Virus record (IMG/VR): IMGVR_UViG_3300010352_001202
DNA from: a virus
Lineage: Duplodnaviria; Caudoviricetes
Length of the DNA stretch: 64,000 nt
Direction: 5' to 3' (one strand)
Of this stretch, positions 4,353-30,969 are shown piece by piece; the stretch's first letter is position 1, and every line of letters starts with the position of its first letter. The notes beneath the pieces are model-generated. The model was not told the origin of the DNA. It did not search any database and was given only the letters and a program-made list of their open reading frames with translations. The position numbers were made by a program, and so were the translations under genes.

Positions 4353-4843
4353 TTAGCCCACCTTGGGCACCAAATAAAATGAAAGATTTTTTCCTCTCTA
4401 TTCCAATGTACATTTTAGGTGCCATATCTGATTGGTATGGCAAGAATTATATTGGTGAACAATTTGAGGAAGACGATTTTGATATATTGAAGCCATTTGA
4501 CATTGATGAATGGCATGCACAGCATACGACAGAAGAGGATAAAAAGGTTTAGAGTGACCGGTACGGCCCGGCCGATACCAAGAACGTTTCGTAGTGTCGT
4601 TGACCCAAAACAATTTCAGGTATCGCCTGAGGTCGACATTACGAAGTGCCCAGATATGATACCTGTTCCCTGTACTAAAAAGGTATTAGTTTGGATTGGG
4701 GGAATAATTGGCCCTCGCGTTGTGAGTTATCTTCTGCGTACATCAGGAGACTCTAAGTTACTTACAGCATTGTCAATTTGGTGAAAAAGCGGTTTTAGTT
4801 ACTCTAATTTAATAATTTTTGACCTCGCAGTTACGAGTCTTAA

Positions 4844-4897
4844 AGAATGCGTTCAGCAATTAAAAATCAAACTTGTAATTTGAAAATAAGCATTCTG
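4844..4897 (+). ncRNA. CAGCAA-module RNA A (anticodon stem-loop cargo)
   Basis: AGAATGC/GCATTCT-G helix; GTTCAGCAA; TCAAA-CTTGTAA-TTTGA. Confidence 0.7.
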
Positions 4898-4909
4898 ATA
4901 TAAATATTT

Positions 4910-5038
4910 TGTTGTAGTTTTATCTGGCAGTAGCAATGGTCACTACTGGTAACGGTATATCGGGATAGGTGAAAGTCCTATAAGCGTAATCGATGCGCCC
5001 ACACAGCCCGGGGATATCGATAAACTGCAACACTTTTT
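4910..5038 (+). ncRNA. Unknown ~125-nt structured RNA
   Basis: TATAAATA at 4899-4906; terminal helix TGTTGTAGTTT/AAACTGCAACA; internal hairpins; 3' U-tract. Confidence 0.6.
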
Positions 5039-11170: not shown

Positions 11171-11248
11171 CGCGGCGTGGGGAAGCTCGGTAACCCGCTA
11201 GGCTCATAACCTAGAGATCGTTGGTTCAAATCCAACCGTTCGCAACCA
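11171..11248 (+). tRNA. tRNA-Met(CAT), initiator-like
   Basis: C1xA72; loop CTCATAA; TTCAAAT; one bulged base in the acceptor stem. Confidence 0.88.
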
Positions 11249-16455: not shown

Positions 16456-17394
16456 ATGAAACTCAAACTTATTTCCGCAGTGGCGCTCTCCCTGTTTGCA
16501 TTGACTGCTGCTCAAGCTCAACAAGTGAAGGTGGCAACCGGCGGTCCCAAGGGAACCTACCATGCGCTGTTTGCCAACATTGCCGAAAAGTGTGGCGACC
16601 AAATGGCAATGATTGAAGTGCCGTCAAGCGGTTCACTGGAAAACTTGGACAAGCTGGCCGGCAAGGAAGTCGGTGCTGCATTCATGCAAACTGATGCACT
16701 GTTTGCTTCTGCACAAGGACGCGATCTGGGCAATATCAAGACACTGGTTGCCTTCAACAAGGAATCGGTCCACGTGGTTGCTCCTGTTGCATCCGGACTA
16801 AAGACGTCGGGCAACATGATTGGCATGGGTAAGCAAGACATTGTGTTTACCAATGTCGAAGACTTGGCAGGCTACAAGGTTGCTGCTGCTGGCGGCTCGG
16901 TGATTACTGCCCAAGTTCTGCAAGGTCAGGGCCAGGTGAAGTGGACAATTGTTCCTGTTGACTCAAACGATGCTGCGATTGCTGCTATCAAGTCCGGTGC
17001 TGTTCAGGCGGCTGTGATGGTTGGTGGACAACCGCTAGGAAATGTCAAGGCGCTTGGTCCCGACATGAAGCTACTTAGTTTTAGGTCCGGTACCGTGGAT
17101 CTGTTGAAGACAGTTTACGTCGCTGATAAGTTGTCGTATCCGAAGCTCAGCACTTCTGCTGTGAGCACCATTGCTACCGAAGCATTGCTGGTTACCAGAA
17201 CTGTGAATACGCCGGATCGCGTTACCGCGCTGGCCAACTTCCGAAACTGTGTCATCAAGCATGTTCCCGAATGGCAAGATGCTGACGGTGCTCACCCGGC
17301 TTGGTCGCAAGTGGATGTTGCTAACAAGGGCAAGTGGCCATTCTACGAGTTGCCGATGCCCGCAACCGTGACAGTCACCGGCAAGAAGAAGTAA
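16456..17394 (+). CDS. TAXI-family TRAP solute-binding protein
   Basis: Signal peptide; VATGGPKGTY, SSGSLENL, FMQTD. Confidence 0.85.
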   Translation: MKLKLISAVALSLFALTAAQAQQVKVATGGPKGTYHALFANIAEKCGDQMAMIEVPSSGSLENLDKLAGKEVGAAFMQTDALFASAQGRDLGNIKTLVAFNKESVHVVAPVASGLKTSGNMIGMGKQDIVFTNVEDLAGYKVAAAGGSVITAQVLQGQGQVKWTIVPVDSNDAAIAAIKSGAVQAAVMVGGQPLGNVKALGPDMKLLSFRSGTVDLLKTVYVADKLSYPKLSTSAVSTIATEALLVTRTVNTPDRVTALANFRNCVIKHVPEWQDADGAHPAWSQVDVANKGKWPFYELPMPATVTVTGKKK

Positions 17395-17411
17395 GAGATA
17401 AATAAGAATCT

Positions 17412-17588
17412 AGGATAGGTACAGCAAACAAAATAATAAAGCAACTGGCAGCTTATAAACTGCCTATTATTGGAAGAAACCAAGTTTGTGTCGGACAAGA
17501 TTCCGAATCGAGCGTAAGCGATTTACGATAGGGAGGTGGGTTTGATAGGCCCTCCAGAATAATAATCAAACCGTTACCAACTATCCTG
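17412..17588 (+). ncRNA. CAGCAA-module RNA B
   Basis: AGGATAG/CTATCCT-G; GTACAGCAA; GATAAATA promoter at 17397 and downstream terminator. Confidence 0.75.
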
Positions 17589-17592
17589 TAAT

Positions 17593-17624
17593 GACACCGC
17601 TTATAATAAGCGGTGTCGCCTTTT
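17593..17624 (+). terminator. Intrinsic terminator-like hairpin
   Basis: GACACCGCTTA-TAA-TAAGCGGTGTC then GCCTTTT. Confidence 0.65.
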
Positions 17625-17635
17625 ATAATACAGGC

Positions 17636-18076
17636 ATGGGCCGACTAGTCGAACTAAAAGACATTGATCTTACACCGCATTGGTATTTTTCCGACACATG
17701 GTATAGTACCGACGGTCGCAGATATGTGTATAAGTGGCCAAGCCCGGATTTCCCGCACCAAGTGTCAATTCATGCAGATGATATTGATCGTGACCATGCA
17801 CTAAAAATCAAAATTAGGCGGTGGATTGAAAGAAATCTTTCCGAGACTGTTATATTTTCCGAAGTACAAAAGAACTATCGAATATATTACGGTGAAGAAA
17901 GAGATTGGGATCACAGCTACGAAAGAAGAAATGAGTGGTATGTGTTCCACTTTGAGGATGAACATAGTGCCACAATATTCCGATTAGCATTTTCGGATTT
18001 AGTGAAAGAGATAACAGAGTTACACCCAGACAAGGAAGACGAATATGAGAAAACTAGCTACCATAAGAACTATTAG
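17636..18076 (+). CDS. Hypothetical protein
   Basis: ORF; start placed after the terminator. Confidence 0.65.
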   Translation: MGRLVELKDIDLTPHWYFSDTWYSTDGRRYVYKWPSPDFPHQVSIHADDIDRDHALKIKIRRWIERNLSETVIFSEVQKNYRIYYGEERDWDHSYERRNEWYVFHFEDEHSATIFRLAFSDLVKEITELHPDKEDEYEKTSYHKNY

Positions 18077-18098
18077 CGATAATTGATGGTTGGCAGAT
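18045..18098 (+). pseudogene. 5' remnant of the RNA ligase gene
   Basis: AAGGA SD, then MRKLATIRTISDN*, and AIIDGWQ in another frame; intact ligase reads MRKLATIRQILDL...AVVDGWT. Confidence 0.8.
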
Positions 18099-18117
18099 AT
18101 ATTTGGTAAATAAGCAT

Positions 18118-18684
18118 ATGAAATACTATACCATTTATAAGACAACCTGCCAACCAACCGGTAAAATATATATTGGTCAACATACAACTTCTAAGATTGA
18201 TGACAGATATATAGGATCTGGTAAAATTATAAAAAATGCTATAAAGAAATATGGAAGACATAACTTTACAAAAGATATTTTAGAAGTCTGTGATACATTA
18301 GAAATACAAAATATTAGAGAAGAATATTGGATACAACTGTTTGATTCGCGTAATCCAGAAATAGGATATAATATAGATACCGGCGGCTATTTAGGTCCGC
18401 GAAGTGATCTGGCAAGAAAAAATATTTCTAATGCAAATAAGTCCGCTGACAAAAGAAATAAAATATCAGTTACACTAATGAATCATGTTGTAAAAGATAT
18501 CACTAGAGATAAAATAAGAGAATCTATTTTACCTACCATGACTCCGGAAAGAAAACAATTCCAGCGGAATAATATGTTAGGTAGGAAAAAAATGAGATGC
18601 ATTGAGACTGGAAAATGTTCTCATATACGAGCAGATGATATACAACACTACATAAACAACGGATGGATATTATGCGTAAATTAG
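18118..18684 (+). mobile_element. GIY-YIG (Seg-like) homing endonuclease
   Basis: TIYKTT...KIYIGQH...YIGSG...E...GYNI. Confidence 0.9.
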
Positions 18685-19760
18685 CCACTATTAGACAAAT
18701 CTTAGATTTGAGACCCATACCCGGCGCCGACCAGATAGAGTTGGCAGTTGTAGATGGGTGGACTGTGGTAGTTAGAGTCGGAGAATTCAAACGCGGCGAT
18801 CCCTGCGTGTATTTTGAGATCGATAGCTTCCTGCCATTGCGTCCAGAGTTTGAACACATTCGTGCCCGTTGCTTCAAGAGAATGGGTGAACAGGAAGGGC
18901 TGCGTATCAAAACCATCCGTTTGCGTGGCCAGCTTAGCCAAGGCATGGCCTTACCGCTGACATCTTTTCCGGAAATTATTACCGAGTGGGACAGGCTGTG
19001 CAATGAAGGGCTGAAAGCAGCAAACACAACTATCCATGACGTTGACTTTTCCGAACTATTGGGTGTACAGAAGTACGAACCTCCTGTTCCTACACAGTTG
19101 GCTGGTAATGTCTCTGGAAATTTCCCCGGATTTATTCCAAAGACAGATCAAGAGCGTTGCCAAAACTATGGAAGAGAAATCTTTGTCGACAACGAAGGTG
19201 CTCGTTATGAGATTACTGTCAAGTTGGATGGTACATCTTTTACTGGGTATCGCAAAGACGAGGAAGACGGTGTCTGTGGCCGTAACTGGAAGCTGAAAGT
19301 TGATGACGACAATGCTACAAACTCCTTGGTTCGCATGTATGTAGACAGCGGATTACAAGCAGCATTAGCCAAATTAGGCATGAACTACGCTGTACAAGGT
19401 GAGCTCATGGGCCCTGGCATACAGAAGAATCGTGAGGGCTTTAAGATCACGAAACTGTTTGTGTTCGATATTTACGATATCGATAATGGATGCTATCTTG
19501 CTCCACATGCAAGGCACGAGGTGTTGTATCAACTGTGGGATTTGGGATTGGACCGTGATATGGTTGACCATGTTCCGGTGATCGCAATGGAAATGCCATT
19601 GGAAGAACTTGGCATCGAAAGTGTAGATCAACTCCTGGCTTATGCAGAAGGTCCGAGTATCGCTCACGCCATACGTGAAGGACTTGTGTTCAAACGAGTG
19701 GACGGTGGATTTAGCTTCAAGGCCATTAGCAACAAGTTCTTGCTGAAGGAAGAGGACTAA
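18672..19760 (+). CDS. RNA ligase, DRB0094/Rnl2-like family with N-terminal OB-type domain
   Basis: Motif I KLDGTS, QGELMG, FVFDI, EGLVFK, FKAISNKFL. Confidence 0.9.
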   Translation: MRKLATIRQILDLRPIPGADQIELAVVDGWTVVVRVGEFKRGDPCVYFEIDSFLPLRPEFEHIRARCFKRMGEQEGLRIKTIRLRGQLSQGMALPLTSFPEIITEWDRLCNEGLKAANTTIHDVDFSELLGVQKYEPPVPTQLAGNVSGNFPGFIPKTDQERCQNYGREIFVDNEGARYEITVKLDGTSFTGYRKDEEDGVCGRNWKLKVDDDNATNSLVRMYVDSGLQAALAKLGMNYAVQGELMGPGIQKNREGFKITKLFVFDIYDIDNGCYLAPHARHEVLYQLWDLGLDRDMVDHVPVIAMEMPLEELGIESVDQLLAYAEGPSIAHAIREGLVFKRVDGGFSFKAISNKFLLKEED

Positions 19761-19791
19761 TTTGTGATAAATAGCGTATCAAGGATACGCT

Positions 19792-20565
19792 ATGAGATTG
19801 CAAGAACTTTTCCTCGTTGAAACCACAGAAGAAGACAGGGCTATTATATCCCTGTCTACCGTCGTTTATGCATACCTAAAGAAGTATGCAGGTAAGAAGC
19901 TAAAAGATGGCGAAGTAATAAATGTAGGAACAGTGGGTCAACTGTTTGATACACCAATCAATATTTTAGATCCAGTTGAGATTCAACTATGGAATCATAA
20001 CGACATTCTAAAAGCATTCCCACAGCAGGCATCTGATGCAGATCAAGAAGATCCGGAAGAGGATGATCGCAATATTCTAGGTTTCTGGGATCCACAATCG
20101 GAAATTGTAGCACTGAATATTGATTACCTTGAATCAAATAGTCTAAAGGGTGCAGTAACACACGAATTGCGCCATGCGTTGGATGATTATAAGTCCGAGT
20201 TCAGGGCAGGTTCAAGCACAAGATACGACACACCGAAGAAAAAGGAACACAGAAAGGATCTATCAAATGATCCGTATGCGTCTGAGCTTGAGAAGAAGAA
20301 GCCTTACCACGCCAAGCCGGCCGAGATCAATGCCCGATTTGCAGAGGTACTGCATGGTGTGACTTTCCAGATAAAGCATTCTATGAAGTATCCACCAGAC
20401 CAAATCCGACCGAGAGTGATGAAGTTATTCATGAAGCTTCTAGACATGAAGCACATAGCTCACTTATTTCCAGAGAAAACACAATCTAAAGATTACAAGC
20501 GTTTGGTAAAACGCGGTATGGATTTTATAGATAAAGAGCTAGCACACCTCCAATCTCAAAAATGA
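19792..20565 (+). CDS. Putative virion protein with HExxH motif
   Basis: THELRH; late promoter at 19766; N-terminus MRLQELFLVE. Confidence 0.6.
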   Translation: MRLQELFLVETTEEDRAIISLSTVVYAYLKKYAGKKLKDGEVINVGTVGQLFDTPINILDPVEIQLWNHNDILKAFPQQASDADQEDPEEDDRNILGFWDPQSEIVALNIDYLESNSLKGAVTHELRHALDDYKSEFRAGSSTRYDTPKKKEHRKDLSNDPYASELEKKKPYHAKPAEINARFAEVLHGVTFQIKHSMKYPPDQIRPRVMKLFMKLLDMKHIAHLFPEKTQSKDYKRLVKRGMDFIDKELAHLQSQK

Positions 20566-20599
20566 TGTCTTTTTAACCTATTTCTGCAATGGTTATAGG

Positions 20600-20628
20600 T
20601 TGACAATATAAATAAAGCACACTATAAT
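20600..20628 (+). promoter_or_regulatory. Consensus sigma70 promoter driving RNA C
   Basis: TTGACA-17-TATAAT. Confidence 0.9.
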
Positions 20629-20643
20629 AGTGGCTACTTACAA

Positions 20644-20850
20644 AGAGTGGATACAGCAAACAAACCGACGCTGAAAGGCGACTATGGTGTTGATGTCGAT
20701 CTTACATGTGGAGGGTTTACCCGATGAAGCATAGTAAGGCCATCGCTCAACAAACTTCCTAGGACGAAGCAAAAGGTTCGAACTCGGGGTAAGGCCCGAA
20801 AGCAAACTAGTAATCCTTGTGGTGAAACATTTGTCCCTTACACCACTCTG
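20644..20850 (+). ncRNA. CAGCAA-module RNA C
   Basis: AGAGTGG/CCACTCT-G; ATACAGCAA; multi-hairpin interior. Confidence 0.75.
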
Positions 20851-20876
20851 TTTTCAATATCTAAATACAGACATAC

Positions 20877-21260
20877 ATGACAGTAAGTATTTCCTATTCC
20901 CTCGGAGCATTACACGAAGCTGCCAGATTTATTTGGGAGAATAATGAAAGTGTTCTAAACTGGCCTTGTTCCCCAACTTCGGCGTTTGATGTAATGACGC
21001 AAATTAGGGATATGATGGTCAAGGGAGCATTGGAAAATGCTGAGTTCTTAAAGAAAGAAAAGAACAAAACTTTATCAGCCGATGACGATTGGATGACATT
21101 CAATGGTACCGGCGGATATTATGTCCTGTATGAGCTCTTAAGTGAAGAAGATGATGAAGAAGTGCGCATCGGTATCGACATTTTGGTTGATCCCTCGGTT
21201 AGTCATCCTAACCCCCGGTACGTAACAGAAGTCGTTGACAACACAGAAGAGACTGTATAA
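20877..21260 (+). CDS. Hypothetical protein
   Basis: 127 aa ORF. Confidence 0.65.
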   Translation: MTVSISYSLGALHEAARFIWENNESVLNWPCSPTSAFDVMTQIRDMMVKGALENAEFLKKEKNKTLSADDDWMTFNGTGGYYVLYELLSEEDDEEVRIGIDILVDPSVSHPNPRYVTEVVDNTEETV

Positions 21261-21263
21261 ACT
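21235..21263 (+). promoter_or_regulatory. Sigma70-type promoter driving RNA D
   Basis: TTGACA-17-TAAACT. Confidence 0.7.
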
Positions 21264-21280
21264 AGAGACTTACTTGCTAA

Positions 21281-21390
21281 AGATTAGGTACAGCAAAAAA
21301 TAAAATTAGCATATTAGGGCACACTCGAAAGGGTGTATAACTAAGAACCTTTCTGAAGGGGAAAGCAAAAACTCGTCAAAACCTAATCTG
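21281..21390 (+). ncRNA. CAGCAA-module RNA D
   Basis: AGATTAGGT/ACCTAATCT-G; GTACAGCAA; ACACTC-GAAA-GGGTGT hairpin. Confidence 0.75.
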
Positions 21391-21400
21391 ATCTAATTTT

Positions 21401-22024
21401 ATGTATGGACATTGGATTACAAAGATAGAATTTAATCCGGATGATTATATCGGGTTTGTTTATCTTGTGATTAATGTTCTTACAGATCAAAAATATATCG
21501 GCAAGAAAAATTTCAGAGTTAATACACGAACCACAGAAAGGTGGGAAGAGTATACTTCGAGTTCGAAGTATCTAACTAAAGATATTTTAAAATTAGGAAA
21601 AGAAAATTTTCGATTTGAGATTTTATTTCTGTGTAAAACAAAAGAAGAATTAGATAATTTAGAAATAGAAGAACAAAAAAGAAGAAATATACTTAGATCC
21701 TTATTGCCTAACGGCACACGAGAATATTATAATAGGTATATACATAAGGTCGGTCTTAGCACAAATGGGGCTAAATTTAGCGAAGATGTAAAAGAAAAAA
21801 TGCGTAAAACACATACTGGTGTTCCGCATAATTCTAAAGATAAGAAAGTATATCAGTTTAAAGATACAAACACTGGTATTGTCCAAAATTGGACAAGAAA
21901 AGAATTCCAAAATATAGTGGGTGCTGATCCCTGTAAATTAGTTATAGGTAAGGCAAAATCTGTAAGAAAATGGATTTGTTTAGATCCGATTGATGGGATA
22001 AGGAATTATCCTAAGAGAAAGTAA
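21401..22024 (+). mobile_element. GIY-YIG endonuclease
   Basis: GFVYLVIN...KYIGKK...WEEYTSSS...YYN. Confidence 0.85.
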
Positions 22025-22030
22025 TTTTAA

Positions 22031-22150
22031 AGATTCCGTTCCGCAACTAAAATTAATAAACCGAGGTATGTGGGTTCGAGCCCCACTCTCATTGGCAACA
22101 GTGAGATAGTCGAATTGGTATAGACATTGGTCAAATAAAAAGCGAATCTG
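22031..22150 (+). ncRNA. CAGCAA-module RNA E: circularly permuted tRNA mimic (YrlA-like Y RNA)
   Basis: AGATTC/GAATCT-G; GTTCCGCAA; then T arm, GCAA-capped acceptor stem and D arm in permuted order. Confidence 0.85.
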
Positions 22151-22152
22151 AT

Positions 22153-22497
22153 ATGAAAAATACATACACATTTTTAGTCCTAATTTCTGCAATGTGTTCA
22201 TCATTTGCCGGTCCACCTAAAAATAATGTCGAGCTTGAAGATAAATGTTATGCATTGCTAAAACCTCATATTGAAGGTGCGACAATAAAAGGTGTTAGAT
22301 GGAATAGATACGGCGATGAAGTATCGTTTTCTCTTTCTAAGAATGTAGGATATAATCTGACAAGTTTTGCAGAATGTTACATCGATAACGGGGATGTAAA
22401 ACGGCGCTTTGAATCAAAGGCCGAAGGAAAGATCCGTTACGCCGAGGAACAACGAAAGCGTGCCGAAGAAGAAAAGAAATTAAGAAGATTTAAATAA
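22153..22497 (+). CDS. Secreted hypothetical protein
   Basis: N-terminal signal peptide. Confidence 0.6.
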   Translation: MKNTYTFLVLISAMCSSFAGPPKNNVELEDKCYALLKPHIEGATIKGVRWNRYGDEVSFSLSKNVGYNLTSFAECYIDNGDVKRRFESKAEGKIRYAEEQRKRAEEEKKLRRFK

Positions 22498-22499
22498 TT

Positions 22500-22691
22500 A
22501 TGGGATTTAGATTTCGTAAAAGTATAAAGGTTGGTGGAATTAAGTTAAATCTTGGTAAGACCGGATTAACCAGTGTTTCGGTAAAACCGACTAAAAATAC
22601 AAATATCTCAGCAGGTAAGACCGGAGTCACCGGATCTGTATCTTGGTTAGGCACCGGACTTAGTTATATTTTCAAGATATTCAAATGGTAA
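22500..22691 (+). CDS. DUF4236-like protein
   Basis: MGFRFRKSIKVGGIKLNLGKTG...GTGLSY. Confidence 0.8.
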   Translation: MGFRFRKSIKVGGIKLNLGKTGLTSVSVKPTKNTNISAGKTGVTGSVSWLGTGLSYIFKIFKW

Positions 22692-22876
22692 AAATGAAAG
22701 CATTAGTTCTTTTGGCAGCTATATTCTTGGCAACCTCAGCAAGTGCTACAGGTGGTAGATTAAATAGCAAGGGATGTCATAATAGTAAGAAGGTCGGATA
22801 TCATTGCCATAGAAGTCAAGATAAACCTGCACCTGTTAAGAAAGAAAAAGTTATTCCAAAGAAGAATAAACAATAA
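22685..22876 (+). CDS. Secreted YHYH-like small protein
   Basis: Signal peptide; GGRLNSKGCHN...GYHCH. Confidence 0.75.
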   Translation: MVKMKALVLLAAIFLATSASATGGRLNSKGCHNSKKVGYHCHRSQDKPAPVKKEKVIPKKNKQ

Positions 22877-22909
22877 AGAATTTTGACAGCAACTTAAAAT
22901 AAAATTCTG
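22877..22909 (+). promoter_or_regulatory. Cargo-less CAGCAA module F in the DUF2828 gene leader
   Basis: AGAATTTT-GACAGCAACTTAAAAT-AAAATTCT-G, immediately before the GGAG SD. Confidence 0.75.
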
Positions 22910-22924
22910 AACGGAGAAACAAAA

Positions 22925-24313
22925 ATGACAACACTATTTGAAGCAGTAAACGCAAACGCAACAACAGCAAACGGGGCCGTGACAAACGCATCGTCTCTAA
23001 ATAAAAATGTGGACCTTTTCTTCCTTGCTGGTGCAAGCCGCGGTAAGGATATCACTTCTACCTTCGCCGGAGCCTTCGTTGAAGACTCCGAAGTTGCAAC
23101 TCGTATCCTTCAGTGGGCACGTGATGCACGCGGTGGAGCAGGTGAGCGTGAAACTTTCCGTAAGTTGTTCGGCTATCTGTTGAAGAACGAAATCGCAATC
23201 GCTTCTCGCGTGCTTGTAAAGGCACCTGAGCTTGGCCGTTGGGACGACGTTTTGATCGCCTTCGGTACACCTATCGAGCGTGAAGCTCTGCGTATGATCG
23301 CCTTTGCTTTGAACGAAGTAAAGGATGGTCTGTGCGCAAAGTGGATGCCGCGTCAGGGTGCGGAAGCGAACAAGATTCGCTCGTACATGAAGTTGACTCC
23401 GAAGCAATATCGTAAGCTCTTGGTTGGCTTGTCCAACACTGTTGAGCAGAAGATGTGTGCCCAGGATTGGACTGGAATCGTGTATCCGCATGTTCCGTCG
23501 GTTGCTGCTGGTCGTTACCAGAAGGCTTTCTTGAAGCACGATCCTTCGGGATATGCGAAGTACAAGGAAAAGCTGGTTTCGGGCGAAGCGAAGATCAACG
23601 CATCGGTTGCTTACCCGTACGACGTGATTCGTTCACTTCGTAACGGCGATAAGGTTGTTGCTAACGCACAATGGGATGCATTGCCAAACTATCTTGAAGG
23701 TTCGGACGAAAACATCCTCCCGGTTGTTGACGTTTCGGGTTCTATGGATTTCCAAGTGTCTGGTAGCGTAACTGCTATGGACGTTGCGATCTCCTTGGGA
23801 TTGTACACTTCGGAACGTATGGGTGGTGTGTTCAAGGACCAGTTCGTGACATTCTCGAGCCAGCCGGAAATGCTGCACTTGAAGGGCAACCTTCAACAGC
23901 GTTATGACGCAATGGCTCGTTCCAACTGGGCAATGAGCACAGATATCCAGGCTGTGTTCAAGTTGATCTTGACTTCGGCAACGAAGCATAAGGTTGCTCA
24001 GAAGGAAATGCCGACAAAGATCCTGATCTTGTCGGACATGGAATTCAACACTTGCGTTACTGGCGGAACAAGCGTTAGCGCAATGAACATGATTGAGAAG
24101 GAATATGCTGCCGCAGGGTACAAGGTTCCGCAGGTTGTGTTCTGGAACCTGAAGGGTCGTGCTGGAAACAGCCCGGTTACCTACAACCAGTCCGGAACTG
24201 CACTTGTGTCGGGCTTCTCTCCGAGCATCGTTAAGTCGGTACTTGGTGGTGAAGAAATGACACCGATCAGCATCATGCTGAAGACTGTAATGGTCCAGAG
24301 ATACGACTTCTAA
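22925..24313 (+). CDS. DUF2828-family helical + vWA protein (TROVE/Ro60-like architecture)
   Basis: RDARGGAGER, GRWDD, KWMP; vWA VVDVSGSM, LILSDMEF, VFWN. Confidence 0.85.
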   Translation: MTTLFEAVNANATTANGAVTNASSLNKNVDLFFLAGASRGKDITSTFAGAFVEDSEVATRILQWARDARGGAGERETFRKLFGYLLKNEIAIASRVLVKAPELGRWDDVLIAFGTPIEREALRMIAFALNEVKDGLCAKWMPRQGAEANKIRSYMKLTPKQYRKLLVGLSNTVEQKMCAQDWTGIVYPHVPSVAAGRYQKAFLKHDPSGYAKYKEKLVSGEAKINASVAYPYDVIRSLRNGDKVVANAQWDALPNYLEGSDENILPVVDVSGSMDFQVSGSVTAMDVAISLGLYTSERMGGVFKDQFVTFSSQPEMLHLKGNLQQRYDAMARSNWAMSTDIQAVFKLILTSATKHKVAQKEMPTKILILSDMEFNTCVTGGTSVSAMNMIEKEYAAAGYKVPQVVFWNLKGRAGNSPVTYNQSGTALVSGFSPSIVKSVLGGEEMTPISIMLKTVMVQRYDF

Positions 24314-24664: not shown

Positions 24665-25057
24665 ATGAAATCTAAGTGTTTAAATTGTCTCCAAGAATTT
24701 GAATATAATCCGCATCAAAATGCAGGTTTATATTGTTCAAATTCTTGCAGAGGAATACATAAATCCAGGCTTCATAAAGAAGCCTGGTATGCAGGTACAT
24801 TAACAAAGAAGATCGATCGTCCTACTATTAGAAAATATCTAACAGAGGATCGAGGATATAATTGTGAAATATGTAAATTATCAGAATGGCAAAATCAGCC
24901 CATAACACTTGAGGTTGATCACACCGATGGAAATTCTGCAGACGATAACCCGAGTAATGTAAGATTGATATGCCCCAATTGTCACAGTCAATCACCACAT
25001 CGCGGCGCTGCCAATAAGGGTAGAGGTCGTAAATCTTTAGGACTTTCGTTATACTAG
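24665..25057 (+). mobile_element. HNH endonuclease
   Basis: CEICK...LEVDHTDGN...NVRLICPNCH. Confidence 0.9.
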
Positions 25058-25665: not shown

Positions 25666-25741
25666 GCCCTTTTAGCTCATTTGGCAGAGCAACGCACTTG
25701 TAATGCGTAGGTGGTCAGTTCGAATCCGACAAAGGGCACCA
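25666..25741 (+). tRNA. tRNA-Thr(TGT)
   Basis: Canonical cloverleaf; loop CTTGTAA. Confidence 0.95.
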
Positions 25742-30623: not shown

Positions 30624-30932
30624 ATGAGCCACTGGAATTATAGAGTTTGTAAATCAACATACAAGGGTGACGGTTACGAAGAAGTCACCTACGAAATTCG
30701 CGAAGCATATTACAATGCTGACGGTAGCATCTGGGCTGTAACAGAAACAGCAAAAGGTGTATTTGGAGACAACATCCAAGAAATCAAGCAATGCCTTGAA
30801 TGGATGCAACTTGCGGTAAATAAAGAAGTAATCGATCTTGATACTCTTGTATTTGCCCCAATGGACAAAACAGACACAGGCATCGAAGAAGAATGGCTGG
30901 ATTCAGATAGTGATATTCTGCCGCCCTCGTAA
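30624..30932 (+). CDS. Hypothetical phage protein
   Basis: MSHWNYRV...IREAYY. Confidence 0.7.
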   Translation: MSHWNYRVCKSTYKGDGYEEVTYEIREAYYNADGSIWAVTETAKGVFGDNIQEIKQCLEWMQLAVNKEVIDLDTLVFAPMDKTDTGIEEEWLDSDSDILPPS

Positions 30933-30969
30933 CGCGGTCACGAGAGTTTGATTCTCTCATCCAGCACCA
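30896..30969 (+). tRNA. tRNA-Thr(CGT) with A19-U56 elbow
   Basis: GCTGGAT/ATCCAGC-ACCA; loop CTCGTAA; D loop AGTGATA; T loop TTTGATT. Confidence 0.8.

What the first reader, a model, noticed from the sequence alone, without database searches (positions are those of the whole stretch)
4844..4897. Module RNA displaying a lone anticodon stem-loop
Seen: the cargo is TCAAA-CTTGTAA-TTTGA, a 5-bp stem with a 7-nt CU-UGU-AA loop. The loop is identical to that of the phage's own tRNA-Thr(TGT) at 25666. Copy E supplies everything except the anticodon arm and this copy supplies only that arm. Inference: decoy or sensor for an anticodon nuclease or an anticodon-modifying enzyme.
Basis: partly seen in the sequence, partly recalled or inferred. 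Interest (0 to 1): 0.72.

Follow-up and report, generated by a model that had tools for sequence, protein, structure and literature searches.

The report
Phage small RNA displaying anticodon arm
A giant phage encodes a 54-base RNA whose only variable part copies the anticodon arm of a tRNA, mounted on a conserved 'handle' that travels with a Ro60-like ring protein; relatives keep the arm's shape but swap the three anticodon letters, so it is probably a protein-tethered anticodon bait, a design I found in no paper.

Summary
Window 4844-4897 (+) reads clamp AGAATGC, motif GTTCAGCAA, A-rich linker, hairpin TCAAA-CTTGTAA-TTTGA (4867-4883), linker, clamp GCATTCT, G. Its loop equals that of the phage's tRNA-Thr(UGU).

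Alone the hairpin is not significant: three like it lie by chance inside ORFs, and the A/U stem is weak. Comparison decides. Of 97 AT-rich homologues with the same handle, 44 have a stem of at least 5 bp with a 7-nt loop (shuffles 4.3), and 36 also have U33 and R37 (shuffles 0.7).

Positions 32, 33, 37 and 38 match real tRNAs of the same contigs. Positions 34-36 vary (UGU, UUU, GUU, GAU, GCU, GCA, UGG and others). All five stem pairs show compensatory changes. A sibling with the same handle carries a whole circularly permuted tRNA with this arm first.

The handle co-occurs with a DUF2828/DUF7788 protein (9 of 10 contigs) that folds like Ro60. A handle RNA ends 12-20 nt before that gene's start in 6 of 6 genomes.

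The handle resembles Dictyostelium Class I RNAs (RF01414, 28.7 bits, below threshold).

The decoy or sensor role is plausible but untested.

This scan already reported the handle-RNA/Ro60-like pairing on many other genomes. I found no published description.

The parts
4844..4897 (+). Small RNA gene 'copy A' (54 nt): clamp helix, ACAGCAA-type motif and anticodon-arm cargo
   Evidence: Sequence read. 124 distinct homologues were found with the same handle. Sub-threshold Rfam match to RF01414 over its full length.
4844..4850 (+). 5' strand of the clamp helix (AGAATGC), pairing with 4890-4896
   Evidence: Perfect 7-bp complementarity. In the window's six copies the helix sequence differs while pairing is kept. 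144 further handle RNAs with other clamps were found in related loci.
4851..4859 (+). Single-stranded handle motif GTTCAGCAA (family consensus NNWC(A/C)GCAA)
   Evidence: C11, G13, C14, A15 and A16 are invariant in alignment A1. The same motif occurs in copies B-F and in KVP40.
4867..4883 (+). Anticodon-arm mimic: stem TCAAA/TTTGA and loop CTTGTAA (C32 U33 U34 G35 U36 A37 A38)
   Evidence: Geometry enriched in homologues. All 5 stem pairs show compensatory changes. The loop profile matches 449 real tRNAs of the same loci.
4890..4897 (+). 3' strand of the clamp (GCATTCT) plus the conserved unpaired G
   Evidence: The 3' end ...CUG is shared with copies B-F and with the Class I RNA consensus.
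17412..17588 (+). Handle RNA copy B (clamp AGGATAG/CTATCCT, 177 nt)
20644..20850 (+). Handle RNA copy C (clamp AGAGTGG/CCACTCT, 207 nt), preceded by TTGACA-17-TATAAT
21281..21390 (+). Handle RNA copy D (clamp AGATTAG/CTAATCT, 110 nt), preceded by TTGACA-17-TATAAA
22031..22150 (+). Handle RNA copy E: T arm, capped acceptor-like hairpin and D arm (YrlA-like permuted tRNA body without anticodon arm)
   Evidence: E-like RNAs lie directly upstream of the Ro60-like gene in relatives G001, G004 and G002.
22877..22909 (+). Minimal handle copy F (no cargo), ending 15 nt before the start codon of the Ro60-like gene
   Evidence: In relative G003 the clamp at the same site is changed on both strands (AGATTTA/TAAATCT).
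22925..24313 (+). Ro60-like protein gene (Pfam DUF2828 + DUF7788; PHROG 850 'RNA-binding protein'), the presumed partner of the handle
   Evidence: Pfam and PHROGs. AlphaFold model with pLDDT 91.8. The top 13 PDB matches are all Ro60/TROVE.
25666..25741 (+). tRNA-Thr(UGU), whose anticodon loop is identical to the loop of copy A
18663..19760 (+). RNA ligase gene lying among the handle RNA genes (context only)
   Evidence: Pfam PF21189 + PF09414. PHROG 968.

Best explanation
Copy A is a real gene for a small RNA of about 54 nt. It belongs to a large family, absent from the papers and Rfam families I searched, that is built like Y RNAs. A 7-bp clamp joins the two ends. A single-stranded ...C(A/C)GCAA motif follows the 5' strand, and a variable cargo sits between A-rich linkers. 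The clamp plus motif (the 'handle') most likely docks on the phage's Ro60-like ring protein (22925-24313). In this subfamily the cargo is a free-standing copy of a tRNA anticodon arm: 5 bp and a 7-nt loop with C32, U33, A37 and A38 fixed and the three anticodon positions free to change. The most likely role is a protein-tethered bait. It would offer an anticodon loop (here Thr-UGU) to a factor that reads anticodon loops. The leading candidate is a host anticodon nuclease, which the RNA would soak up or report. Shown: the RNA's anatomy, its conservation, the covariation, the tRNA-like loop profile, the Ro60-like fold and the genomic linkage. Inferred: that the protein binds the handle, and the bait or decoy role.
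For: 1. Family and geometry.
- 124 distinct homologues share the handle.
- 44 of 97 AT-rich ones have a stem of at least 5 bp with a 7-nt loop, against 4.3 +/- 1.9 in shuffles.
- 36 of 97 also have U33 and R37, against 0.74 +/- 0.84.

2. Loop profile of 35 distinct hairpins: C32 63%, U33 83%, A37 89%, A38 63%, with positions 34-36 variable.
- 449 real tRNAs of the same loci give C32 60%, U33 98%, A37 87% and A38 77%.
- The loop equals that of the cognate phage tRNA in 9 of the 15 cases where that tRNA lies in the held locus.

3. Stem: all 5 pairs have changes on both sides and 96% of cells are paired. Slid controls give 26-41% over the whole 12-pair structure.

4. Syntenic orthologues lie between tRNA-Leu(UAG) and tRNA-Val(UAC). 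They keep the geometry but read UGU, GUU, UUU or GAU. Close relatives G001 and G003 read UGU and UUU.

5. L014 and L027 have the identical handle carrying anticodon arm (same CUUGUAA loop), T arm, 7-bp capped acceptor and D arm.

6. Protein.
- The model has pLDDT 91.8.
- The top 13 PDB matches are all Ro60/TROVE, at E 8e-9 to 5e-7.

7. Linkage.
- A homologue of the protein occurs in 9 of 10 contigs carrying an A-type RNA, and in 4 of 4 complete ones.
- The base rate is 711 of 50,697 GenBank phage records.
- A handle RNA ends 12-20 nt before the gene's start codon in 6 of 6 genomes, in G005 an A-type RNA itself.

8. Anticodon-arm cargo also occurs on 25 of 69 small handle RNAs with other clamps. 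Some phages carry panels, for example UGU, UUU and GUA in L062.

9. Background: defence systems that cut tRNAs, countered by phage tRNAs, are documented (PARIS, PMC11455837; Septu, PMC13096335). Y RNAs that mimic tRNA and partner Ro60 are documented (PMC4201824; PMC12135203).
Against: - No expression data exist: the RNA, its ends and its binding to the protein are all inferred.
- The all-A/U stem is marginal (about -0.7 kcal/mol alone). It is absent from the minimum-energy fold, whose z-score is -1.15.
- About half of the homologues with this handle carry other hairpins. One close relative has C at position 33.
- Copy A lies 18 kb from the protein gene.
- The A/U bias at position 36 equals the background composition, so no link to a particular modification (t6A, i6A) can be read from it.
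- Nothing in the data points to a nuclease rather than any other factor that binds anticodon loops.
- Alignment A1 was built from sequences chosen for having a hairpin, which favours pairing.
Confidence: 0.5

Rival explanations
1. Adaptor rather than decoy. The handle binds the Ro60-like ring. The anticodon arm recruits a tRNA repair or modification enzyme to the particle, such as the phage RNA ligase at 18663-19760 or a host anticodon-loop modifier. Alternatively it gates the ring, as Y RNAs tether PNPase to bacterial Ro60.
For: Y RNAs act as tethers and gates for Ro60 (PMC4201824; PMC12135203). An RNA ligase gene lies among the handle RNA genes. Jumbo-phage TROVE proteins have been discussed as RNA-repair platforms (PMC7824862). 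All the anatomical evidence fits this reading as well as the decoy reading.
Against: No enzyme is identified. The ligase is not adjacent to copy A. The wide range of anticodons and the panels of several per phage fit anticodon-specific targets better than one generic repair enzyme.
Confidence: 0.2
2. Structural leftover. The hairpin descends from the anticodon arm of a permuted tRNA-like cargo, as in L014. It now serves only as a spacer or stabiliser of a minimal handle RNA. Its tRNA-like loop would reflect ancestry or a need of the partner protein, not present-day tRNA mimicry.
For: The full permuted tRNA version exists with the same handle. Cargo-free handles exist: copy F and G003. Many homologues carry hairpins unlike an anticodon arm. 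The stem is weak.
Against: The 5-bp and 7-nt geometry and positions 32, 33, 37 and 38 are held through many compensatory stem changes and on clamps of unrelated sequence. Only positions 34-36 drift. That is the pattern of selection on an anticodon-loop shape. A mere spacer would not keep U33 and A37.
Confidence: 0.15
3. Codon-directed regulator. The displayed anticodon pairs with a codon, on the ribosome or on an mRNA, or with another loop, to tune translation of particular codons.
For: An isolated anticodon stem-loop can occupy ribosomal tRNA sites (established knowledge). The triplet is the part that varies.
Against: There is no complementary conserved target, no link to codon usage was examined, and the weak stem and protein handle are not explained.
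Confidence: 0.05
4. Not a functional RNA: a chance hairpin, or a DNA-level or processing signal between tRNA genes.
For: Three comparable hairpins occur by chance inside ORFs of this window. The thermodynamic z-score is insignificant.
Against: Dozens of homologues in diverse phage contigs are conserved as a discrete 54-66-nt unit. In G003 only the RNA itself matches, in a different flank. All lie on the tRNA strand, show covariation, have no U-tract and are linked to one protein family.
Confidence: 0.03

Closest known systems
Bacterial and phage Y RNAs (YrlA/YrlB, Yrn1) with Ro60/Rsr (Chen et al. 2014, PMC4201824); Thermus phage phiLo Ro60 with Yrl1/Yrl2 (PMC12135203)
   Same: Small RNAs are encoded beside a ring-shaped Ro60-type protein, several per genome. 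The ends pair into a stem next to a short single-stranded protein-binding motif. The variable module mimics tRNA: copy E has the YrlA order of T arm, acceptor hairpin and D arm. A short hairpin-only member accompanies the tRNA-like one, as YrlB accompanies YrlA.
   Different: The motif is ...ACAGCAA, not GNCGAA or GGUCCGA. The protein scores as Pfam DUF2828 + DUF7788, is only 13-18% identical to solved Ro60s, and phmmer finds none of them. No Rfam Y RNA or YrlA match was found. The cargo here is a lone anticodon arm, the part YrlA lacks. Only Deinococcus Yrn1 was modelled with a 5-bp 'anticodon arm', with a 6-nt loop.
Dictyostelium Class I RNAs (Rfam RF01414; Kjellin et al. 2021, PMC7919456)
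   Same: Length is 42-65 nt. A 6-7-bp terminal stem has variable sequence and compensatory changes. The RNA starts (A)AG and ends CUG(U). A conserved 11-nt motif ending in ACAGCAA follows the 5' strand directly, and the rest is A/U-rich and variable. Copy A aligns to the whole model at 28.7 bits, E 5e-4.
   Different: Class I RNAs are eukaryotic nuclear genes with a DUSE promoter and are reported as unique to Dictyostelia. Their known direct binder is the RRM protein Rnp1A/CIBP. No anticodon-arm cargo is described. The phage RNAs stay below Rfam's threshold of 41.5 bits; the best seen was 35.2. Common descent versus convergence is open.
tRNA anticodon arm, here the phage's own tRNA-Thr(UGU) at 25666-25741
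   Same: The 7-nt loop CUUGUAA is identical. The stem has 5 bp with an A-U pair closing the loop.
   Different: There are no D, T or acceptor arms. The stem is all A/U instead of G/C-rich. It is not called by ARAGORN or the Rfam tRNA model.
Phage tRNAs as counter-measures to tRNA-cutting defences (PARIS, PMC11455837; Septu, PMC13096335)
   Same: The RNA lies in the tRNA arrays of tRNA-rich phages and presents the element that anticodon-directed nucleases recognise.
   Different: Those counter-measures are complete, functional replacement tRNAs. This RNA cannot be aminoacylated and would act only by binding or being cut. I found no paper describing an anticodon-arm decoy RNA.

Membership tests
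Phage 'clamp + ACAGCAA' handle RNA family (not found in Rfam or in the papers searched; seen repeatedly by this scan) | Terminal helix of 6-7 bp starting AG and ending CU, followed by an unpaired G | tested here: met
   AGAATGC/GCATTCT-G at 4844-4850 and 4890-4897. The same layout with other sequences occurs in copies B-F and in 144 further RNAs.
Phage 'clamp + ACAGCAA' handle RNA family (not found in Rfam or in the papers searched; seen repeatedly by this scan) | Motif NNWC(A/C)GCAA directly after the 5' strand of the clamp | tested here: met
   GTTCAGCAA at 4851-4859. C, G, C, A, A are invariant in A1.
Phage 'clamp + ACAGCAA' handle RNA family (not found in Rfam or in the papers searched; seen repeatedly by this scan) | Occurs in genomes that encode a DUF2828/DUF7788 Ro60-like protein | tested here: met
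   The window encodes one at 22925-24313. 9 of 10 contigs with an A-type RNA encode one.
Phage 'clamp + ACAGCAA' handle RNA family (not found in Rfam or in the papers searched; seen repeatedly by this scan) | Expressed as a discrete RNA bound by that protein | not testable with these tools
   There are no transcript or binding data. The link is inferred from co-occurrence and from handle RNAs abutting the gene's start codon.
Dictyostelium Class I RNA (RF01414) | Score at or above Rfam's gathering threshold (41.5 bits) | tested here: not met
   28.7 bits for copy A. The best of 12 related loci scored 35.2 bits.
Dictyostelium Class I RNA (RF01414) | 42-65 nt, short terminal stem, 11-nt motif with ACAGCAA next to the 5' strand, ends (A)AG...CUG(U) | tested here: met
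   54 nt. The alignment covers the full model 1-56. Features are as listed in PMC7919456.
Dictyostelium Class I RNA (RF01414) | DUSE promoter about 60 nt upstream; dictyostelid nuclear gene | tested here: not met
   The window is a tRNA-rich giant phage: relatives are IMG/VR contigs of 364-369 kb with terminal repeats. No eukaryotic promoter applies.
Y RNA / YrlA (Ro60 partner RNAs) | Ro60-binding motif GGUCCGA or GNCGAA(N)G near the 5' end | tested here: not met
   The motif here is GTTCAGCAA. Only copy E (GTTCCGCAA) is loosely similar. Motif definitions are from PMC4201824.
Y RNA / YrlA (Ro60 partner RNAs) | Match to an Rfam Y RNA or YrlA model | tested here: not met
   No such match at gathering threshold in the window, nor at E up to 10 in 4800-4940 or E up to 1 in 17350-22950.
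Y RNA / YrlA (Ro60 partner RNAs) | Partner protein has the Ro60 fold (HEAT-repeat ring plus vWA domain) | tested here: met
   The model has pLDDT 91.8. The top 13 PDB matches are all Ro60/TROVE, with TM 0.49-0.67 over the whole length.
tRNA | Cloverleaf with acceptor, D, anticodon and T arms | tested here: not met
   Only an anticodon-arm-like hairpin is present. It is not called by ARAGORN or Rfam RF00005.
tRNA | Anticodon arm: 5-bp stem and 7-nt loop with Y32, U33, R37 | tested here: met
   TCAAA-CUUGUAA-UUUGA. The homologue profile matches 449 real tRNAs.

The most novel reading that the evidence does not exclude
The phage handle RNAs, their Ro60-like DUF2828 partner and the Class I RNAs of Dictyostelium form one ancient ribonucleoprotein family spanning phages, giant viruses, bacteria and eukaryotes. 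The unidentified partner of Class I RNAs would then be a DUF2828-type protein, possibly DDB_G0281243, the unknown-function protein in the DdR-21 pull-down. Within this family, the anticodon-arm members would be exchangeable baits that phages use to neutralise or sense anticodon-specific nucleases, the triplet being retargeted by one or two point changes.
Probability: 0.12. Interest if true: 0.9.

Novelty: new variant of a known kind. Interest (0 to 1): 0.7.

Why it matters
Ro60 and its Y RNAs are a long-studied particle, yet why bacterial Y RNAs mimic tRNA is still open. Here the mimicry is broken into parts. One RNA shows only the anticodon arm, another only the rest of the tRNA, and a sibling shows both, all on one handle. 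That gives a clean way to ask which tRNA feature the particle presents and to whom.

The family also assigns candidate RNA partners to a very large protein family of unknown function: 6,224 clusters at 50% identity, and 711 GenBank phage records including KVP40.

If the arm is a decoy, it would be a new RNA-based counter to tRNA-cutting defences.

The likeness of the handle to Dictyostelium Class I RNAs, reported as unique to social amoebae and of unknown mechanism, offers a testable lead for them too.

Tried and rejected
- Within-window repeat search found only tRNA-derived repeats. The handle is too short and variable for it.
- blastn of the flanks against GenBank phages hit only tRNA-Val.
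- A search for relatives of the neighbouring 91-aa ORF in IMG/VR found nothing.
- The exact 16-mer search returned 27 loci, of which 20 were chance hits in GC-rich coding DNA. About 27 of the 124 pattern hits are likewise GC-rich and probably unrelated, so I excluded them by a cut on cargo GC.
- Thermodynamic folding neither supports nor shows the hairpin.
- No whole genome is held for the window.
- phmmer of the protein against PDB sequences gave nothing meaningful. Only the fold comparison reveals Ro60.
- Rfam: no Y RNA or YrlA match, and RF01414 only below threshold.
- Trans-assembly of copies A and E into one tRNA through their clamps is rejected, because the clamp strands are not complementary between copies.
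- Reading a specific modification (t6A or i6A) from the U/A bias at position 36 is rejected, because the bias equals the background composition.
- Avesson et al. 2011 is not in the library. The identity of DDB_G0281243 could not be checked.
Full report
WHAT IS THERE

Window 4844-4897 (+) reads as follows:
- 4844-4850: AGAATGC
- 4851-4859: GTTCAGCAA
- 4860-4866: TTAAAAA
- 4867-4871: TCAAA
- 4872-4878: CTTGTAA
- 4879-4883: TTTGA
- 4884-4889: AAATAA
- 4890-4896: GCATTCT
- 4897: G

The outer seven bases pair perfectly. The inner hairpin has a 5-bp stem and a 7-nt loop identical to the anticodon loop of the phage's tRNA-Thr(UGU) at 25666-25741. No ORF of 30 aa or more covers 4785-4919.

IS IT MORE THAN CHANCE?

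Not in the single sequence.
- The + strand of the window has 11 perfect hairpins of 5 bp and 7 nt with a YU-NNN-RA loop. Eight lie in tRNAs, one is this hairpin, and three lie inside ORFs. Shuffles give 1.6 per strand.
- The all-A/U stem is worth about -0.7 kcal/mol.
- It is not part of the minimum-energy fold, whose z-score is -1.15.

The case rests on comparison.

THE MODULE

| Copy | Coordinates | Clamp |
|---|---|---|
| A | 4844-4897 | AGAATGC/GCATTCT |
| B | 17412-17588 | AGGATAG/CTATCCT |
| C | 20644-20850 | AGAGTGG/CCACTCT |
| D | 21281-21390 | AGATTAG/CTAATCT |
| E | 22031-22150 | AGATTC/GAATCT |
| F | 22877-22909 | AGAATTT/AAATTCT |

- The clamp sequence differs in every copy while pairing is kept.
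- E carries a T arm (GTGGG-TTCGAGC-CCCAC), a capped hairpin and a D-arm-like element. This is the order found in bacterial YrlA Y RNAs (PMC4201824).
- F has no cargo and ends 15 nt before the start codon of the gene at 22925-24313.

HOMOLOGUES OF COPY A

The exact 16-mer of the handle gave seven true homologues among 27 IMG/VR hits. Together they hold 124 distinct sequences, of which 97 have AT-rich cargo.

Geometry:
- 44 of the 97 have a best hairpin of at least 5 bp with a 7-nt loop. Shuffled cargos give 4.3 +/- 1.9, with a maximum of 10.
- 36 of the 97 also have U at loop position 2 and a purine at position 6. Shuffles give 0.74 +/- 0.84.

Loop profile of the 35 distinct 7-nt-loop hairpins:

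| Position | Composition |
|---|---|
| 32 | C 22, U 7, A 4, G 2 |
| 33 | U 29 |
| 34 | U 14, G 14, A 6, C 1 |
| 35 | all four bases |
| 36 | U 20, A 11 |
| 37 | A 31 |
| 38 | A 22, C 9 |

The 449 real tRNAs encoded in the same loci give C32 60% / U32 40%, U33 98%, A37 87% and A38 77%. The constrained positions are therefore those of an anticodon loop, and the free ones are the anticodon. Triplets seen include UGU, UUU, GAA, GAU, UGG, GCA, GCU, GUU, UAA and UGA, and GUA.

In an alignment of 42 such RNAs, all five stem pairs show changes on both sides and 96% of cells pair. Slid controls give 26-41% over the whole 12-pair structure. These sequences were chosen for having a hairpin, so pairing is favoured, but the variety of stems is real: TCAAA/TTTGA, TTCAA/TTGAA, CTTTA/TAAAG and TTGAA/TTCAA.

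ORTHOLOGUES IN PLACE

The RNAs lie inside tRNA arrays.
- The slot tRNA-Leu(UAG), copy A, tRNA-Val(UAC), tRNA-Pro(UGG) of the window recurs in L143, L178, L191, L147 and L145. The geometry is the same there, but the triplets are UGU, GUU or UUU.
- In the nearest subgroup (same clamp, GTTCNGCAA), 16 of 18 distinct sequences keep 5 bp and 7 nt. Their loops are CUUGUAA x8, CUUUUAA x4, CUGUUAA x2, AUGAUAA and CUUGGAA.

Close relatives of the phage have a Ro60-like protein 82-85% identical to the window's. Two of them, G003 and G004, are 364-369 kb with terminal repeats:

| Relative | Hairpin |
|---|---|
| G001 | identical to copy A |
| G003 | TTCAA-CUUUUAA-TTGAA, plus a second small RNA with CUGUAAA |
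| G004 | TCAA-A-UCGUAAA-A-TTGA, where U33 is lost |

In G003 only the 62-nt RNA matches the window, and it sits 8-9 nt from its flanking tRNAs. It is thus a discrete conserved unit, probably cut out of a tRNA precursor.

THE LINK TO A WHOLE tRNA

L014 and L027 carry the identical handle (AGAATGC GTTCAGCAA) followed by these elements:
- ATGGC-CUUGUAA-GCCGT
- a 5-nt variable loop
- a T arm, GTTGG-TTCGACT-CCAAC
- a 7-bp capped acceptor hairpin
- a D arm, GCTC-ATTTGGTA-GAGC

This is a complete circularly permuted tRNA, opened between the D arm and the anticodon arm. The hairpin of copy A sits exactly where this RNA has its anticodon arm and has the same loop. The family thus displays a whole tRNA, the tRNA minus its anticodon arm (copy E), or the anticodon arm alone (copy A).

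The cargo type is not tied to one clamp. In the same loci, 25 of 69 small handle RNAs with other clamps have anticodon-like loops, and some phages carry several, for example UGU, UUU and GUA in L062. The cultured phage KVP40 has a small one at NC_005083.2 176664-176722.

THE PARTNER PROTEIN

- The gene at 22925-24313 matches Pfam DUF7788 (E 6.5e-51) and DUF2828 (E 1.1e-25), and PHROG 850 'RNA-binding protein'.
- The family is very large: 6,224 clusters at 50% identity and 711 GenBank phage records.
- A model built on 67 sequences has pLDDT 91.8 and pTM 0.90. It has a helical half (27-252) and an alpha/beta half (264-462).
- Its 13 PDB matches with E <= 0.001 (8e-9 to 5e-7) are all Ro60/TROVE: frog, human, Deinococcus and Thermus phage phiLo. 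TM-scores are 0.49-0.67 over the whole length. The matches that follow cover only vWA domains.
- Sequence search alone does not find Ro60.

LINKAGE OF RNA AND PROTEIN

- A homologue of the protein is present in 9 of 10 contigs that carry an A-type RNA. The exception is a fragment estimated 41% complete, and all four complete genomes have it.
- In 6 of 6 genomes a handle RNA ends 12-20 nt before the protein's start codon. It is a minimal handle in the window and in G003, where the clamp is changed on both strands. It is an E-like tRNA body in G001, G004 and G002, and an A-type RNA in G005.
- This argues for co-expression. It also suggests that the protein can bind next to its own ribosome-binding site. 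Binding itself is inferred.

COMPARISON WITH WHAT IS KNOWN

(a) Y RNAs. The logic is the same as for Ro60 with YrlA and YrlB: a terminal stem, a short protein-binding motif and a tRNA-mimicking module, encoded by the Ro60 gene, several per genome (PMC4201824). Phage Ro60 with Y-like RNAs is known (PMC12135203). The motif (ACAGCAA against GNCGAA), the protein's Pfam family and the lone anticodon arm differ. No Rfam Y RNA or YrlA model matches.

(b) Dictyostelium Class I RNAs.
- An E-value scan gives RF01414 over its full length: 28.7 bits, E 5e-4, against a threshold of 41.5.
- The published features fit closely: 42-65 nt, a short terminal stem with compensatory changes, an 11-nt motif with ACAGCAA next to the 5' strand, and ends AAG...CUGU.
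- That paper reports the class as unique to Dictyostelia.
- None of 12 related loci reached the threshold; the best scored 35.2 bits.
- The proteins pulled down with Class I RNA DdR-21 are GuaB, NdkC, CIBP/Rnp1A and DDB_G0281243, which has unknown function. I could not check whether the last is DUF2828-like.

(c) I found no paper on DUF2828 with RNAs, on Class I RNAs in phages, or on anticodon-arm decoy RNAs.

This scan has already reported the handle-RNA/Ro60-like pairing on many other genomes, one report mentioning anticodon loops.
- the quantitative test of the anticodon-arm geometry
- the in-place orthologues with changing triplets
- the whole-tRNA sibling
- the lead to DDB_G0281243

HOW IT MOST LIKELY WORKS

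Shown: a conserved small-RNA unit, a covarying clamp and stem, a loop constrained like an anticodon loop with a free triplet, a Ro60-fold protein, and tight genomic linkage.

Inferred:
- The handle docks on the Ro60-like ring.
- The A-rich linkers leave the arm free.
- The arm is offered to a factor that reads anticodon loops.

I favour a bait for anticodon-directed nucleases, acting as decoy or sensor, for three reasons:
- The triplet is what changes between close relatives.
- Phages carry panels of different triplets.
- tRNA-cutting defences, and phage tRNA counter-measures to them, are established (PMC11455837, PMC13096335).

An adaptor role, recruiting a repair or modification enzyme to the particle, fits the anatomy equally well and is the main rival. 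A purely structural leftover is less likely, given the pattern of constraint.

Weak points:
- There is no expression or binding evidence.
- The stem is marginally stable.
- Half of the wider family carries other hairpins.
- Nothing singles out a nuclease.

VERDICT

Copy A is a new variant of the Ro60/Y-RNA kind of system.

Noticed in passing
window 20590-20643 and 21225-21280: Copies C and D are each preceded by a near-consensus sigma-70-type promoter (TTGACA, 17 nt, TATAAT or TATAAA). It ends about 15-20 nt before the clamp, so they look like separate transcription units. Copy A has no such promoter and is probably processed from a longer transcript.
   Followed up: partly
L001 9888-10010 (Citrobacter phage Ci1, OR515478.1): This is a tRNA-like gene in normal (unpermuted) order. 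Its anticodon-arm region is expanded and contains CTACAGCAA. It lies just downstream of the phage's DUF2828 gene and next to a 114-nt feature annotated 'tRNA-Pseudo-AAC'. It suggests a third way of joining the handle motif to a tRNA body.
   Followed up: partly
L003 929-987, 2284-2496, 4526-4772 (Vibrio phage KVP40, NC_005083.2): The cultured phage KVP40 has at least three unannotated handle RNAs in its tRNA cluster, upstream of KVP40.0300 (DUF2828, annotated 'RNA-binding protein'). The small one carries CTTTT-ATTTGGA-AAAAG. An ACAGCAA element also precedes the gene's start codon.
   Followed up: partly
window 18103-18684, 21401-22024, 24665-25057: Homing-endonuclease genes (two GIY-YIG-type, one HNH) are interspersed among the handle RNA genes and the Ro60-like gene. 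This may explain why RNA copies and their order differ between close relatives.
   Followed up: no
L011 4784-4859; L145 6142-6216 and 6321-6396: Relatives of this phage carry tRNAs with anticodon CUA (amber suppressors, labelled tRNA-Pyl by ARAGORN). L011, L035 and L156 carry tmRNA genes.
   Followed up: no
window 11172-11244 and 30896-30966: Rfam's tRNA model finds two tRNA-like genes (53.3 and 45.4 bits) that ARAGORN did not call.
   Followed up: no
L014 about 640-690 and 803-870 (and L027): Handle RNAs stand in tandem. The 3' end of one (CTATCCTG) lies about 22 nt before the permuted-tRNA RNA, and another (AGGTTAA TTCCAGCAA..., with loop CTGCTAA or CTTCTAA) starts 9 nt after it.
   Followed up: partly
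L049 4150-4348: A group I intron match (RF00028, 59.8 bits) lies in the tRNA array of a related contig, next to tRNA-Thr(UGU).
   Followed up: no
literature (bioRxiv 10.1101/2020.04.05.026054): One of the four proteins pulled down with Dictyostelium Class I RNA DdR-21 is DDB_G0281243, of unknown function and conserved in all Dictyostelia. Whether it belongs to the DUF2828/DUF7788 family could not be checked with the tools at hand.
   Followed up: no
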